Below are positions 1 to 63,528 of a DNA stretch of 64,000 bases, in pieces. The stretch covers positions 1,157-65,156 of IMG/VR virus record IMGVR_UViG_3300017829_000024; one strand, 5' to 3'. The first letter of the stretch is position 1. Each line of letters opens with the position of its first letter. The DNA is from a virus. Below the pieces are notes generated by a model that was not told where the DNA came from, ran no database searches, and saw only the letters and a program-made list of their open reading frames with translations. Position numbers and translations under genes: made by a program.

Positions 1-837
1 GTAACCGGGAAAACGGATACGCACACGCGCGATCGCATTCTTCATGACCTCAAGACAGGCCGTTTGCGCGCCGTGACCAACGCAGACATCTTGACCGTCG
101 GATTCGACTGCCCACGAATCGATTTCATTGGCCTTCTTCGCCCCACGCTTTCGCCGGGACTCTTCGTTCAGATGGTGGGGCGCGGTCTTCGGCTTCATCC
201 AGACAAGGCCGACACCCTCATTCTCGACTACGGAGGCAACATTCAAAGACACGGAACGCTCGATGCGATCCGAATGCGTGAGCCCGGCGACAAGAAGGGA
301 ACTGCGCCCACGAAGGTCTGCCCCGTCTGTACGGCTGAGATCCCTCTGGCGGCCACAGAGTGCCCCGAGTGCCATGCCGATATCCGCAGCGAAGAGAGGC
401 CCAAGCCGAAACACGACGCAGAGGCCTCTGAGCAGGAGATCATTGGCACAGGCGCGCCCATAGAGGCGGTGAATGAAACTGTCACCGAGGTCCAGTATGC
501 CTATCATCGCGGCCGAAACGGAAAACCCCCGACCATGAAGGTCACCTATCGGCTCCAAGGCAAGCCTGCGCCCGTGTCCGAATGGGTCTGCATCGAGCAT
601 GATGGGTGGGCTCGGACGAGGGCCGAAAGCTGGTGGTTGCGTCGCTCCCTCGATAAGAAACACGCACCCGAAACGATTGAAGAAGCCCTCGCCCGAGCAC
701 CGGGCCTTCTTCAGCCACGGATCTTGGCCGTCGTCTACCCGCCTGATAGCTATCCAAAGATACGATGGGCAAAACGATTCATCGACCCGATCGGTCGACC
801 CGGGATGGAGAATGTGCGTCGGCTCAAACCAGTGTAG
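1..837 (+). CDS. SF2 (DEAD/DEAH, RadD/YejH-like) helicase, C-terminal part; 5' end outside window
   Basis: Frame open from base 1; motif V TNADILTVGFDCP, motif VI FVQMVGRGLR, LILDYGGNIQRHG, Zn ribbon CPVC..CPEC. Confidence 0.88.
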   Translation, partial: VTGKTDTHTRDRILHDLKTGRLRAVTNADILTVGFDCPRIDFIGLLRPTLSPGLFVQMVGRGLRLHPDKADTLILDYGGNIQRHGTLDAIRMREPGDKKGTAPTKVCPVCTAEIPLAATECPECHADIRSEERPKPKHDAEASEQEIIGTGAPIEAVNETVTEVQYAYHRGRNGKPPTMKVTYRLQGKPAPVSEWVCIEHDGWARTRAESWWLRRSLDKKHAPETIEEALARAPGLLQPRILAVVYPPDSYPKIRWAKRFIDPIGRPGMENVRRLKPV

Positions 838-1096
838 AGCACTATTATCATTGGCTCAAAGACGGCACGCGACTAGAACTTCTAGAGTGGGTTGGCGCAC
901 CGCTGGTCAGCTTTGAAGAGCTTGAAGAGATGGGCTACACGGTCATCATTGATAAGCGACTCGAGGTAACTCCTGGATTTGAACAGATGTAACGGGCCTC
1001 GGCATGCGGAAGCGGCGCGTTAAATGGCACAAGTTTACAGCATGCAATGGTATAGGCTTGACAGCGAAGCGAGGCGCCGCATACAGCGGTTTGCGG

Positions 1097-1768
1097 ATGA
1101 CAAAATCACAGCTTGCGGCGCCTCGTCGCATGAAGATCTCAACCGAATGCGCATTCACAATCAAGGGGCAAATAGACTGCCCCTTGCTGATGCACGCGCC
1201 GACAACCGTTGACCCGCTGAACCCATATTCAGTGAAGATGCGTAAGGTCTCTACAAAGCGCCAGAAAACCGAAGATGATTACGAGGCTATCTCTCGGATT
1301 GAGTTTCTTGCAGGGCTCTATTTCGAGGACGGAACCGGTCCGTACATTCCAAGTCGGGTCATTTCCGCGTGTTTGATTGATGGCGCTAAGAAGTTCAGGC
1401 TCGGTCGCGCCGCCCGTGCCGGCATTACGCCTAAATCGCCCCGGTTCTTCTTCAAGAAGTGGCGCGGACCCAAGACCGCCGAGGCGCTCTTTGAGTCTCG
1501 GCTCAAAGACGGAACACAGCGGTATGTTGATAAGCGATGCGTTCGCGTTACAACCAGCCGGATCATGAGGACGCGCCCCCGGTTTGACGCCTGGGAGATC
1601 GACGTAAGCCTCATCATTGACGCGACCGCATTTGATCCCGAGCGAATAGAAGACATCGTGCATGCCGCGGGCACGCTCGTCGGCATCTGCGATAATCGAC
1701 CCGAATGCGGACGATTTGAGCTCGATGGCGACATTGTCTTGACAGAAAACACACTCAAGATGGCCTAA
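1097..1768 (+). CDS. Small Cas7/RAMP-like RNA-binding protein (Vipr-like effector); start at 1097 or 1130
   Basis: FTIKGQ..PLLMH, YIPSRVISACL, R.RPRFDAW and C-terminal G-rich loop AGTLVGICDNRPECGRF typical of RAMP folds; lies upstream of a GGY-NN array. Confidence 0.72.
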   Translation: MTKSQLAAPRRMKISTECAFTIKGQIDCPLLMHAPTTVDPLNPYSVKMRKVSTKRQKTEDDYEAISRIEFLAGLYFEDGTGPYIPSRVISACLIDGAKKFRLGRAARAGITPKSPRFFFKKWRGPKTAEALFESRLKDGTQRYVDKRCVRVTTSRIMRTRPRFDAWEIDVSLIIDATAFDPERIEDIVHAAGTLVGICDNRPECGRFELDGDIVLTENTLKMA

Positions 1769-1781
1769 AAGGAGAACATCA

Positions 1782-2267
1782 ATGAATGCAGCAGAGAGGC
1801 GTCAACACGCACTTTCCCCGAAGGACCGAGCCATTGAGCGCGCTCATGTTCTCGCCGAGAAGATGATGGACTCACCCGGCGTAAGCTGGCCGGTTGACAC
1901 TGTCTGTCGCGAGCTTCAGATCCCCAAATGCAGAACGCATGACAGATACATACTGAGCGGATTCGAGGCGCTCTATCTGCATTCGGAGCTCGAACGTCAC
2001 GGTCATTACCTTGTGCCGGCTCGATCGGGAAACCGTGTGCAGTCCTACCATCTGGCAGATGATCGCGAAAAAGAACTGGTTGTCGCCAAGAAGTACGAGC
2101 AAAAGTCCATAACCTGCCTTGAAAAGCGCGTTCGCATCCTTGGTCAGGTTGTCAACTCGGACTACAACTCCGAGGAGAGAAAAAGATTAGAGGCCACGCG
2201 CCGCATCGCTTCCGCCGAGCTTGATGCGATAAAGCGCGCAAGAAAGCGCCACAAAGACGGCATCTGA
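1782..2267 (+). CDS. Accessory protein between RAMP-like gene and repeat array (function unknown)
   Basis: 161 aa ORF with RBS AAGGAG; stop codon 4 nt before the first pentamer. Confidence 0.75.
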   Translation: MNAAERRQHALSPKDRAIERAHVLAEKMMDSPGVSWPVDTVCRELQIPKCRTHDRYILSGFEALYLHSELERHGHYLVPARSGNRVQSYHLADDREKELVVAKKYEQKSITCLEKRVRILGQVVNSDYNSEERKRLEATRRIASAELDAIKRARKRHKDGI

Positions 2268-2271
2268 TCTT

Positions 2272-2850
2272 GGTTTGGCAGGGCATGGCCGGGCAAAGCC
2301 CGATCAGGCGCGGCCGGGTCAGTTGTGGCAAGGCTTGGCAGGGCTGGGCATGGCTAGGCATGGCAGGGCAGGGATTTGATCTGAATGTTTTACGGGGCCA
2401 GGCTCGGCAAGGCCCGGTGTGGCGTGGCAGGGCACGGTTCGGCACGACTTGGCACGGCAAGGCAAGGATTTGAATTCTAGATTTTTTCGGGGCATGGCAT
2501 GGCCAGGCTGGGCAAGGCAAGGATTTGAGTTTCAGAATTTAAACGCGGCCCGGCTCGGTGGGGTTCGGTGGGGCAAGGCACGGCGTGGCATGGCGAGGCA
2601 TGGATTTGAATTCTAAATTTAGATGCGGCTAGGCATGGCCTGGCTGGGCGCGGTCGGGCTCGGCCCGGCACGGTGCGGCATGGCCTGGCTGGGCTGGGCA
2701 AGGCAAGGATTTGAGTTCTAGGTTTTCACCAAGGCCGGGTTAGGCATGGCAGGAATTTGAGTTCTCAGTTTACGCGAGGCATGGCCGGGCGAGGCTCGGC
2801 GGGGCGCGGTATGGTGAGGCCAGGCGAGGCGCGACAAGGCAAGGGTTTGA
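2272..2850 (+). ncRNA. GGY-NN pentamer array, 7 units (20,14,6,11,16,4,13 pentamers), putative guide-RNA array
   Basis: Strict 5-nt periodicity; units at 2272-2371, 2396-2465, 2491-2520, 2547-2601, 2627-2706, 2733-2752, 2778-2842; each ends in GGATTTGA (variants GAATTTGA, GGGTTTGA); units separated by 24-26 nt AT-rich linkers. Confidence 0.9.
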
Positions 2851-2856
2851 GTGGAT

Positions 2857-3252
2857 ATGACACGCATTGAAACGATTGATCCGTCTCGGTTTGACGGCCG
2901 CCTTCGCCATCTTCCGCAGCCCAATGAAGACCTTCCCGTCCGTGCGTTTTGGGCAGACTATCTTGGTCAACCCAAAGGCCCCAAATGGAGGGGGCGCTTC
3001 GTTGACTGCGGAGACTATCGAGTCGAGCTTGTGCTTGATGATCAACAGTACCCAGACACGGTCAATCGATGTCCTCCGGGATGGTGGGATCGCCGCACCG
3101 GTCGGCCCTGCGGTGTGCCGGCGGATGTGGCATCGTTTCGGTTCGAGCTCATTCCAGCCGGCGAAACGCACTGGAGACAAGATGGCCAAAAGAAGCTTGA
3201 AGCGACGACGCATGACGAAGAAGAAGGCGCGTCAAAGCCTCCGAGACGGTGA
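2857..3252 (+). CDS. Hypothetical protein
   Basis: ORF starts right after the array; no recognised motif. Confidence 0.55.
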   Translation: MTRIETIDPSRFDGRLRHLPQPNEDLPVRAFWADYLGQPKGPKWRGRFVDCGDYRVELVLDDQQYPDTVNRCPPGWWDRRTGRPCGVPADVASFRFELIPAGETHWRQDGQKKLEATTHDEEEGASKPPRR

Positions 3253-35895: not shown

Positions 35896-36349
35896 TTTTC
35901 AGCCTCTCTCGCGCAGAGAGCGCGAGCTCGGCCCATGATGTGTATTGGCTTCCTCGGCCTTCTTCTTCGAGCTGATAAATGACGCGATCCAGGGCAATAT
36001 CCGTTTGAAGTTTCGCCCAAATCGCCATGTAGCCGCGCCGTGCTGTGTGATCCATTCCGGCCTGCATCATGAGGATCGATAGGGATCGGACGCGCTCGAC
36101 CGCGTCATCGTCTGATGCGTCCGCGAAGGCGAGCGCATCGACCGTGCGAAGGCGTTTGGCCTCATAGAGCGCCGCCTCTTGCCTCCAGGCCTGAAGGAGT
36201 CGCGGGTGGTCCTTCATGCGCTTTGCGAGCGTCGTTCGCGCCATCATGAGGGTGTCCGCGATTTGGGCGGGCCGAAGACCCTGACCCGCAAGGACGCGGA
36301 TGCGCGACTCGAGAAGCCGCACATCCTTGTGCCATGGCCGAGGAATCAC
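35855..36349 (-). CDS. terS: Terminase small subunit candidate
   Basis: N-terminal HTH (GLRPAQIADTLMMARTTL); GTGA overlap start; upstream of terL. Confidence 0.6.
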   Translation of the reverse strand: MIPRPWHKDVRLLESRIRVLAGQGLRPAQIADTLMMARTTLAKRMKDHPRLLQAWRQEAALYEAKRLRTVDALAFADASDDDAVERVRSLSILMMQAGMDHTARRGYMAIWAKLQTDIALDRVIYQLEEEGRGSQYTSWAELALSARERLKNGERNRERTDNDQ

Positions 36350-63317: not shown

Positions 63318-63391
63318 TGGTGCAAGCCGGATTTGAACCGGCAACCCATCGGTTAACAGCCGATTGCTCTACCAAAGTGAGCTATTGCGTG
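63318..63391 (-). tRNA. tRNA-Asn(GTT) with defective or short acceptor stem
   Basis: ATCGG-CTGTTAA-CCGAT anticodon arm, GCTC/GAGC D arm, TTCAAAT T loop; only 4 acceptor pairs. Confidence 0.75.
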
Positions 63392-63419
63392 TAGGCGCAT
63401 CCTTGGAGGATGCGACGTC

Positions 63420-63491
63420 TAGCACAGGAGGGACTCGAACCCCCGACCTTCAGATTATGAGACTGAAAAGCTGCCGCTGCTCCACTGTGCT
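63420..63491 (-). tRNA. tRNA(CAT), initiator-Met-like body; CCA not encoded
   Basis: Acceptor AGCACAG/CTGTGCT, loop CTCATAA, T loop TTCGAGT, D arm GGAGCAGCGGCAGCT. Confidence 0.85.
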
Positions 63492-63528
63492 ATGCGCTCG
63501 AAACGAGTTGTGCAGCATGAATTGCAAA

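What the first reader, a model, noticed from the sequence alone, without database searches (positions are those of the whole stretch)
2396..2465. Unit 2 decodes (antisense) to SF2 helicase motif V
NN string: CA TC AA CC GT GT AG AC TC AC TT AC AA AA. Its reverse complement with one-base gaps is TTn TTn GTn AAn GTn GAn GTn CTn ACn ACn GGn TTn GAn TG = [FL][FL]-V-[NK]-V-[DE]-V-L-T-T-G-[FL]-[DE]-[CW]. This is the VNVDVLTTGFDC motif of RadD/YejH-like phage helicases. Here the guide would pair with the coding strand, the opposite polarity to units 4 and 7, but still in codon register.
Basis: partly seen in the sequence, partly recalled or inferred. Interest (0 to 1): 0.9.

Follow-up and report, generated by a model that had tools for sequence, protein, structure and literature searches.

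The report
Phage VIPR guide against helicase motif V
Unit 2 is one guide RNA gene in a phage-encoded VIPR array, a recently described RNA-guided DNA-silencing system, and its 12 variable dinucleotides match, codon by codon, the motif V coding sequence (VNVDVLTTGFDC) of RadD-like replication helicases in other phages but not in the phage's own helicase.

Summary
The observation and the interpretation both hold. It is unit 2 of a 7-unit array (2268-2850) that follows a Vipr gene (1004-1768). That gene matches the solved SUSP1 Vipr protein at E=1e-22.

VIPR was described in three 2026 bioRxiv preprints. Each guide NN pairs with target DNA while one target base is skipped, usually the codon wobble base.

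- **Target hits.** The 12 variable NN, read by this rule, have exact 24/24-base matches in 3 IMG/VR and 13 metagenome contigs. The backwards control pattern gave 0 hits.
- **Location of hits.** Every hit lies in frame on VNVDVLTTGFDC, which is SF2 motif V of a RadD-like phage helicase orthologous to the phage's own. All 11 skipped bases are wobble positions, and each varies among the hits.
- **Near-hits.** Twelve prophage helicases in bacterial genome contigs match 11/12.
- **Self-avoidance.** The phage's own motif V (TNADILTVGFDC, window 76-111) matches 7/12, about the shuffle background.
- **A VIPR-bearing target.** One target clade carries its own VIPR.

Silencing is inferred from the literature and was not tested. 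This is a new member of a known kind, with a new target class.

The parts
1..837 (+). 3' part of the phage's own RadD-like SF2 helicase. The full gene is 570 aa and starts 876 bases upstream of the window (876 bases before window position 1), at L004:281-1993.
   Evidence: Searches give the translation. PDB 6jde RadD matches at E=8e-60. phrog_16 DNA helicase matches at E=2e-89.
76..111 (+). The phage's own motif V codons (TNADILTVGFDC). This is the site homologous to the unit-2 target, but it is not matched by the guide.
   Evidence: It matches 7/12 NN and 17/24 bases, below the 80% threshold used in the VIPR papers and about the mean of shuffled-guide best scores. One mismatch is a synonymous Leu codon, TTG instead of CTN.
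1004..1768 (+). vipr gene, encoding the RAMP-like guide-binding protein (254 aa).
   Evidence: phmmer against PDB 36pp_D 'SUSP1 Vipr protein' gives E=1.1e-22 over residues 59-241. SUSP1 GGY-contact residues H17, R138, D177 and R179 are conserved; W178 is N here (residues from bioRxiv 10.64898/2026.04.26.720927). phrog_4652 matches at E=5e-40.
1782..2267 (+). Candidate vap (vipr-accessory) gene, 161 aa, identified by position only.
   Evidence: It sits between vipr and the array, as in the SUSP1 and Gordonia phage MakoManhole loci. It has no Pfam, PHROG or PDB match and no BLASTP similarity to MakoManhole gp77.
2268..2850 (+). vrRNA array of seven units. Each is a run of GGY-NN pentamers followed by a conserved G(G/A)(A/G)TTTGA tail start and an AT-rich linker.
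   Evidence: There is no Rfam family match.
2396..2455 (+). Unit 2 guide proper: 12 pentamers whose NN specify the target.
   Evidence: Exact gapped matches occur in 16 contigs on VNVDVLTTGFDC.
2456..2465 (+). Two GGCAA pentamers, probably part of a constant 3' handle rather than the guide.
   Evidence: The same AA AA ending closes units 2, 3, 5 and 7. The distantly related clade-B arrays likewise all end in TT TT. In the target hits these two positions match only partly.
2466..2490 (+). 3' tail and linker of unit 2, starting GGATTTGAATTC. It may form a weak hairpin rich in G-U pairs.
   Evidence: It is conserved across the units. RNAalifold gives an 8-pair stem at only -4.3 kcal/mol with little covariation, so the structure is inconclusive.

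Best explanation
Unit 2 is a vrRNA gene of a phage-encoded VIPR system made of vipr (1004-1768), a candidate vap (1782-2267) and a seven-unit array (2268-2850). By analogy with the published mechanism, Vipr protomers would bind one GGY each along the transcript and present the 12 variable NN dinucleotides. These would pair with DNA that carries complementary dinucleotides separated by one skipped base. For unit 2 that DNA is the coding strand of the 12 codons for VNVDVLTTGFDC, which is SF2 motif V of RadD-like replication-module helicases in other phages and prophages. Every skipped base is a wobble position, so the guide in effect reads a peptide motif and synonymous drift cannot break the match. 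The expected result is transcriptional silencing of the competitor's helicase gene and of whatever is co-transcribed downstream. The phage's own helicase has five non-matching codons in this motif and is spared. Three things are shown here: the array anatomy, the Vipr homology, and the exact in-frame natural targets together with their statistics. Three things are inferred from the literature: expression, RNP formation and silencing.
For: Anatomy of the array is shown. Vipr homology to a solved SUSP1 Vipr is E=1.1e-22, with 4 of 5 GGY-contact residues kept. The 1-nt skip rule, wobble alignment, use of both strands and phage-versus-phage role are published. Exact 12/12-NN hits number 3 in IMG/VR and 13 in metagenome contigs; the backwards control gave 0. 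All hits are in frame on motif V of full-length orthologues of the phage's own helicase, and all 11 skip positions vary among them. In the shuffle nulls the observed 22/24 exceeds a maximum of 20 in 400 shuffles, and only skip 1 stands out. The target is one specific variant and not simply the family consensus. Of the 111 nearest helicase clusters in which motif V was located, only 3 read VNVDVLTTGFDA, 13 could reach 10/12 or more, and none but the phage's own ends GFDC. There is no self-target: the phage's own site scores 7/12. The three genome-contig hits whose neighbours were scanned lie in prophage replication modules with Sak4-like, RusA, Cas4-type exonuclease and primase genes. Target clade B itself carries a Vipr (about 36% identity) and GGY-NN arrays, matching the published VIPR-versus-VIPR conflict.
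Against: There are no expression data, and no sequencing run was listed for the window. The host is unknown. Co-occurrence with either target clade could not be tested. The exact-match clades are only 35-41% identical to the phage's own helicase and differ from it in GC content (46-49% and 62-63% against 58.7%), so they may not share a host. No second guide of this array hits the fetched parts of the same target contigs. The vap candidate has no recognisable homology. The tail is short and lacks the pseudoknot described for SUSP1. The G-loop Trp of SUSP1 Vipr is Asn here.
Confidence: 0.8

Rival explanations
1. The guide's real target is the host's chromosomal radD gene. The phage would silence a host DNA-repair helicase rather than a competing phage.
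For: The target family is RadD. E. coli RadD motif V is VNVAVLTTGFDA, which is 10/12 at codon positions 1-2. Twelve bacterial genome contigs carry 11/12 matches.
Against: The three genome loci whose neighbours were scanned lie in prophage replication modules and not in chromosomal radD contexts. The only 12/12 matches end GFDC and are on viral or viral-like contigs. The first guide dinucleotide matches Cys specifically, which cellular-type GFDA lacks. The host is unknown.
Confidence: 0.08
2. The array is a genuine VIPR array, but unit 2's match is a coincidence or a relic and has no current target. It could be a decayed guide, or one whose natural target is extinct or unsampled.
For: No co-occurring target phage has been shown. 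No other guide converges on the same contigs. Units 3 and 6 are very short, which suggests some units may be decayed.
Against: The match is 24/24 specified bases in 16 contigs, against 0 for the control. From my own estimate, the expectation for 24 fixed bases in about 1e11 bases is on the order of 1e-3. All hits fall in frame on the same catalytic motif of the orthologue of the gene next to the VIPR locus. Unit 2 has 14 pentamers, within the published 9-16 range, and 13 of 14 keep GGY.
Confidence: 0.06
3. Unit 2 autoregulates the phage's own helicase gene through its imperfect match at 76-111.
For: The best unit-2 site in the phage's own record is its own motif V, tied with an unrelated site.
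Against: The site matches only 7/12 NN (17/24 bases), about the mean of shuffled-guide best scores and below the 80% threshold. The five mismatches are spread along the site. The published systems show no self-targets.
Confidence: 0.02

Closest known systems
SUSP1 / Pseudomonas fulva type II VIPR systems (bioRxiv 10.64898/2026.04.26.720920 and 10.64898/2026.04.26.720927)
   Same: A Vipr homologue is present (E=1e-22 to the solved SUSP1 protein). The gene order is vipr, a small accessory gene, then a downstream array on the same strand. The vrRNAs are GGY/NN pentamers with a conserved 3' extension. The system is phage-encoded. The target obeys the 1-nt skip rule and is wobble-aligned within a coding sequence. 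There is no self-target.
   Different: Vipr is only about 29% identical to SUSP1's and at most 41% identical to any protein found. It has an N-terminal extension of about 58 aa and Asn in place of the G-loop Trp178. The tail is a short AT-rich stretch of about 25 nt, not a pseudoknot. The accessory protein has no detectable homology. The VIPR type could not be assigned.
SUSP1 vrRNA4 against the satellite excision recombinase active site (bioRxiv 10.64898/2026.10.15.759431)
   Same: The guide footprint lies on codons of a catalytic motif with skips on wobble positions, so neither synonymous nor most non-synonymous changes allow escape.
   Different: The target here is motif V of a RadD-like replication helicase. 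It is shared by phage lineages only 35-41% identical to one another and spanning 46-63% GC. In SUSP1 the target is one satellite family in one host genus. No experiment exists for this case.
Class 1 CRISPR Cas7 backbone (crRNA with every sixth base flipped out)
   Same: RAMP-fold protomers polymerise on a guide RNA, and their thumbs interrupt the guide-target duplex periodically (as stated in the VIPR papers).
   Different: There are no CRISPR repeats, no spacers and no cas genes. Three guide bases and one target base are displaced per protomer, which gives a 2+1 code.
Gordonia phage MakoManhole gp78-gp77 locus (PQ184807.1)
   Same: Its Vipr is the closest in a cultured phage (34.7% identity over 91% of the query). 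It has the same order: vipr, an annotated DNA-binding protein, then GGY-NN tracts.
   Different: The tail is different and longer, with a GGTTCGACTCC T-loop-like element. The accessory proteins are not alignable. Its guides do not decode to the helicase motif.

Membership tests
VIPR system | Vipr protein (minimal RAMP with RRM core, G-loop and thumb) encoded at the locus | tested here: met
   Window 1004-1768 matches PDB 36pp_D 'SUSP1 Vipr protein' at E=1.1e-22, covering 177 of 202 residues. H17, R138, D177 and R179 equivalents are conserved; W178 is N. The fold itself was not modelled.
VIPR system | vrRNA genes made of tandem GGY/NN pentamers (at least 4 units, typically 9-16) with constant GGY and variable NN | tested here: met
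   There are seven units of 4-20 in-phase pentamers. Unit 2 has 14, of which 13 are GGY.
VIPR system | Invariant 3' tail after each repeat tract | tested here: met
   G(G/A)(A/G)TTTGA plus an AT-rich stretch of about 25 nt follows every unit.
VIPR system | Conserved secondary structure or pseudoknot in the tail | tested here: inconclusive
   RNAalifold predicts only a weak G-U-rich hairpin at -4.3 kcal/mol, with 2 pairs showing compensatory changes.
VIPR system | Adjacent vipr-accessory (vap) gene | tested here: inconclusive
   A 161-aa ORF sits in the expected position. It has no Pfam, PHROG or PDB hit and no similarity to MakoManhole gp77.
VIPR system | Natural targets obey the 1-nt skip rule at 80% NN match or better, mostly wobble-aligned in coding sequences | tested here: met
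   Sixteen contigs match 12/12 NN and 13 loci match 11/12, all in frame with the skip at codon position 3. Only skip 1 exceeds the shuffles.
VIPR system | No self-target in the source contig | tested here: met
   There is no site within 3 mismatches in the 65.5 kb record. The best site scores 7/12 NN.
VIPR system | vrRNAs are expressed, bound by Vipr, and repress the target | not testable with these tools
RadD-like SF2 helicase (the target gene family) | SF2 motifs I, II, V and VI followed by a zinc ribbon, as in E. coli RadD. The targeted peptide is motif V. | tested here: met
   The phage's own orthologue hits 6jde RadD at E=8e-60, and the alignment places TNADILTVGFDC over VNVAVLTTGFDA. PTGSGKS, DEAH and QMVGRGLR motifs are present. 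Target-bearing ORFs of 577-586 aa have the same layout. Calling this segment 'motif V' rests on established SF2 nomenclature.

The most novel reading that the evidence does not exclude
A single VIPR guide may work as a peptide-motif reader with very broad reach. Because it reads only codon positions 1-2 of a catalytic helicase motif, one vrRNA could silence RadD-like replication helicases in phages that are only 35-41% identical to one another and span 46-63% GC. The phage that carries it would have reshaped its own motif V to stay immune, through five codons that include a synonymous Leu codon and a rare Thr-to-Val change. Together with unit 7, which matches the DnaB motif RESGAIEQDA, the array would be a toolkit aimed at the most conserved replication-NTPase motifs of rival phages.
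Probability: 0.35. Interest if true: 0.65.

Novelty: new member of a known kind. Interest (0 to 1): 0.5.

Why it matters
VIPR was described only in 2026, and its natural targets have been mapped mainly for E. coli SUSP1-family and Pseudomonas systems: a satellite recombinase, lysogeny regulators and rival vipr genes. This locus is a very divergent Vipr lineage, at most 41% identical to anything found, from an uncultured phage. The published 1-nt skip, wobble-aligned code nevertheless predicts an exact, statistically clear target here. That is independent bioinformatic support for the generality of the code. It also adds a new target class, the catalytic motif V of a replication helicase. It gives a concrete testable pair: the 35-bp target site against the phage's own diverged site. 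That pair can be used to ask how many NN mismatches abolish VIPR binding.

Tried and rejected
- **My first reading.** I took the array for a TRAP-like protein-binding array (triplet plus 2-nt spacer) or a pac/par/ori site. I dropped this once the literature search and the Vipr match explained the array.
- **Coding potential of the array.** ORFs at 2270-2473 and 2419-2616 exist, but unit lengths are not multiples of 3 and have different remainders, so these ORFs were rejected.
- **Rfam.** No family matched.
- **Promoter and terminator scans at 900-3000.** Nothing exceeded the shuffles.
- **Self-targeting.** None was found.
- **Convergence of other units on the unit-2 target contigs.** None was seen in the fetched parts. 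Unit 7 and Vipr are absent from the two held clade-A virus records. Metagenome records could not be searched whole.
- **Reciprocal targeting.** Guides called from clade B and L032 arrays do not match this phage above the shuffles.
- **Unit 4.** The 10-NN pattern gave 0 viral hits, and the best local score of 17/22 is within the null.
- **Co-occurrence.** No run was listed for the window. L002 occurs in riverine metagenomes.
- **Closer relatives.** None could be used to trace the guide's history. No close Vipr relative exists in IMG/VR. The best Vipr anywhere is 41% identical. The 74%-identical helicase P0003 has no retrievable contig.
- **Arrays beside the nearest Vipr relatives.** Loci L179-L183 do not decode to helicase motifs.
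- **Not attempted.** I did not predict the Vipr or Vap structures.

Full report
**Observation.** Window 2396-2465 consists of 14 pentamers in a single phase: 11 GGC-NN, 2 GGT-NN and 1 GAC-NN. The tract is unit 2 of seven such units at 2268-2850, with 20, 14, 6, 11, 16, 4 and 13 pentamers. Each unit is closed by G(G/A)(A/G)TTTGA and an AT-rich linker of about 25 nt. No other array of this kind exists in the window. Rfam has no match.

**What the array is.** My first guess was a protein-binding array of triplets with 2-nt spacers. Viral Interference Programmable Repeat systems consist of a minimal RAMP protein, Vipr, and vrRNAs made of alternating GGY and NN. One Vipr protomer holds each GGY. 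The NN pair with the target strand while one target base per unit is skipped, which is the '1-nt skip rule'. Skips mostly fall on codon wobble positions, either strand can be targeted, and binding silences transcription. Natural targets are competing phages, satellites and rival VIPR systems.

The gene immediately upstream of the array (1004-1768, 254 aa) matches the solved 'SUSP1 Vipr protein' (PDB 36pp_D) at E=1.1e-22 over 177 of its 202 residues. In the alignment the SUSP1 residues reported to hold the two guanines and the pyrimidine (H17, R138, D177, R179) are conserved; W178 is Asn. It also hits phrog_4652 at E=5e-40. A 161-aa ORF (1782-2267) occupies the position of the accessory gene but has no detectable homology.

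The window is part of a 65.5 kb IMG/VR virus record. The same vipr, small gene, array order is seen in Gordonia phage MakoManhole, whose gp78 is the closest Vipr in a cultured phage at 34.7% identity. Nothing in the 5.8-billion-protein collection is more than 41% identical to this Vipr.

**The target test.** Using the published rule, I searched with the reverse complement of the first 12 NN joined by single wildcards, which gives 24 specified bases.
- IMG/VR holds 3 exact matches and the JGI metagenome collection 13 more.
- The same pattern read backwards gave none in IMG/VR.
- All 16 hits lie in frame on the peptide VNVDVLTTGFDC.
- All 11 skipped bases are codon position 3, and every one of them varies among the hits.
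- The ORFs are full-length orthologues (577-586 aa where complete) of the helicase whose 3' end opens this window.
- That helicase hits E. coli RadD (PDB 6jde) at E=8e-60 and phrog_16. The alignment places the peptide on the segment VNVAVLTTGFDA of RadD, between the DEAH box and QxxGRGLR. By standard SF2 nomenclature this is motif V.
- An 11-NN pattern found 12 bacterial genome contigs: five Planctomycetota, plus Polyangiales, Iamiaceae, gammaproteobacteria and others. All encode VNVDVLTTGFDA.
- The three of these whose neighbours I scanned lie in prophage replication modules with a Sak4-like annealing protein, RusA, a Cas4-type exonuclease and a primase.

**Statistics.** In 1.09 Mb of DNA that was not fetched with the unit-2 pattern, the best score of the real guide is 22/24. 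This hit is L025, reading VNVDVLTTGFDA. The maximum over 400 shuffled guides is 20, with a mode of 17. With the array masked, only the 1-nt skip spacing exceeds the shuffles (0 of 200 reach it). Skips of 0, 2 and 3 are at the null level. This independently reproduces the published rule in a Vipr lineage only about 29% identical to SUSP1's.

**Specificity.** The target is not simply the family consensus. Motif V could be located in 111 of the 120 nearest 90%-identity clusters of the phage's own helicase.
- The first five residues vary widely (VNCSI, ASMGV, TNANV and others).
- Only 3 clusters read VNVDVLTTGFDA.
- Only 13 could reach 10/12 or more.
- None but the phage's own ends in GFDC.

The exact matches fall in two lineages.

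| Lineage | GC | Contigs | Context peptide | Vipr and arrays |
|---|---|---|---|---|
| Clade A | 46-49% | 13 | ...RFLVNVDVLTTGFDCTRI | No Vipr in the two held virus records |
| Clade B | 62-63% | 3 (L002, L049, L052) | ...RWLVNVDVLTTGFDCPRV | Own Vipr (about 36% identity) and several GGY-NN arrays |

L002 of clade B occurs in riverine metagenomes. Clade B's arrays are interspersed among small genes upstream of its helicase. The phage's own helicase is 35-36% identical to clade A, 41% to clade B, and A is 41% identical to B.

**Self-avoidance.** The phage's own motif V (window 76-111, TNADILTVGFDC) matches 7/12 NN and 17/24 bases. This is about the mean of shuffled-guide best scores and below the 80% threshold used by the authors. 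One of the five mismatching codons is a synonymous Leu, TTG rather than CTN. No site within 3 mismatches exists in the whole record.

**Guide boundaries.** Units 2, 3, 5 and 7 all end with two xxxAA pentamers before the tail. All clade-B vrRNAs end with two xxxTT pentamers. In the target hits these two positions match only partly (13/14 in clade A, 12/14 in clade B). I therefore read the last two pentamers as part of a constant 3' handle and the guide proper as 12 NN (2396-2455). The tail may form a weak hairpin rich in G-U pairs, but the evidence is thin.

**Polarity.** The guide NN string is the reverse complement of the coding strand, so the vrRNA would pair with the coding (non-template) strand of the helicase gene. 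Unit 7 reads in the sense direction as (I/M)RESGAIEQDA, the DnaB-type helicase motif. Unit 4 could not be confirmed: there were 0 exact hits for 10 NN, and the best local score of 17/22 is within the null.

**Mechanism and its status.** Three things are shown here:
- the anatomy of the locus;
- homology of the protein to a structurally characterised Vipr, with the GGY-contact residues largely kept;
- exact, in-frame, wobble-skipping matches of the guide to a catalytic helicase motif in other phages, well beyond chance, with no self-match.

The rest is inferred from the three preprints. The array would be transcribed and processed into vrRNAs. Vipr would polymerise on them. The RNP would form a gapped R-loop/triplex over about 35 bp of the rival's helicase gene and block its transcription, crippling the competitor's replication.

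Several points remain unknown. They are the host, whether clade A or B phages meet this phage in nature, the role of the 161-aa protein, and whether an 11/12 match (GFDA prophages) is enough for binding.

**Rivals.**
- *Silencing of a host chromosomal radD.* This is possible because cellular RadD carries a near-identical motif (E. coli 10/12). It is disfavoured because the 12/12 matches require the rare Cys codon and are viral, and because the scanned genome hits are prophage-borne.
- *Coincidence or a relic guide.* This is unlikely given the statistics.
- *Autoregulation of the phage's own helicase.* This is rejected by the background-level match.

**Novelty.** The system type, the gapped code, the wobble alignment and the idea of aiming a guide at active-site codons are all published. 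New here are a very divergent VIPR lineage in an uncultured phage and a new target class: motif V of RadD-like replication helicases, and for unit 7 a DnaB motif. The matches span phage lineages of very different composition. I therefore class this as a new member of a known kind, of moderate interest.

Noticed in passing
window 2778-2842 (unit 7): Read in the sense direction, the first 11 NN give (I/M)RESGAIEQDA, a DnaB-type replicative helicase motif. A second guide of this array therefore also points at a conserved replication-helicase motif.
   Followed up: partly
window 2547-2601 (unit 4): The proposed Walker-A reading (PSGSGKTVI...) could not be confirmed. There were 0 exact IMG/VR hits for the first 10 NN. 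The best local score of 17/22, on PTGSGKTIIAG of a helicase in L046, is within the shuffle range.
   Followed up: partly
L002 3465-5080 (minus strand); also L049, L052: The target-bearing clade-B phage has a Vipr C-terminus followed by at least three separate GGY-NN arrays, interspersed with small ORFs. Its tail is GGAC/GGAG-TTTTT...CGTACAACTCAC, and every guide ends with TT TT. One tract shows a 1-nt phase shift inside a unit. None of its guides matches our phage above shuffles.
   Followed up: partly
L178 2960-3140 (Gordonia phage MakoManhole, PQ184807.1): Downstream of vipr (gp78) and a 'DNA binding protein' (gp77) lie two short GGY-NN tracts. Their long conserved tails contain a T-loop-like GGTTCGACTCC hairpin. 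ARAGORN calls no tRNA there. This may be a tRNA-like processing signal.
   Followed up: partly
L182 4988-6872 and L183 925-2809: A Vipr that is 37% identical to ours is flanked on both sides by vrRNA tracts of 11-22 pentamers. These share a tail of GGGCTACATAGCACC followed by a variable GC hairpin. A BrnT/BrnA toxin-antitoxin pair lies nearby.
   Followed up: no
window 1004-1180: This Vipr has about 58 N-terminal residues with no counterpart in SUSP1 Vipr (202 aa). The closest relatives in the protein collection are 187-219 aa long, so the extension, or the start codon, deserves checking.
   Followed up: no
window 36256-36350, 63318-63492: Three tRNA genes (Glu-CTC of unusual 95-nt length, Asn-GTT, Met-CAT) lie on the minus strand of the phage record.
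   Followed up: no
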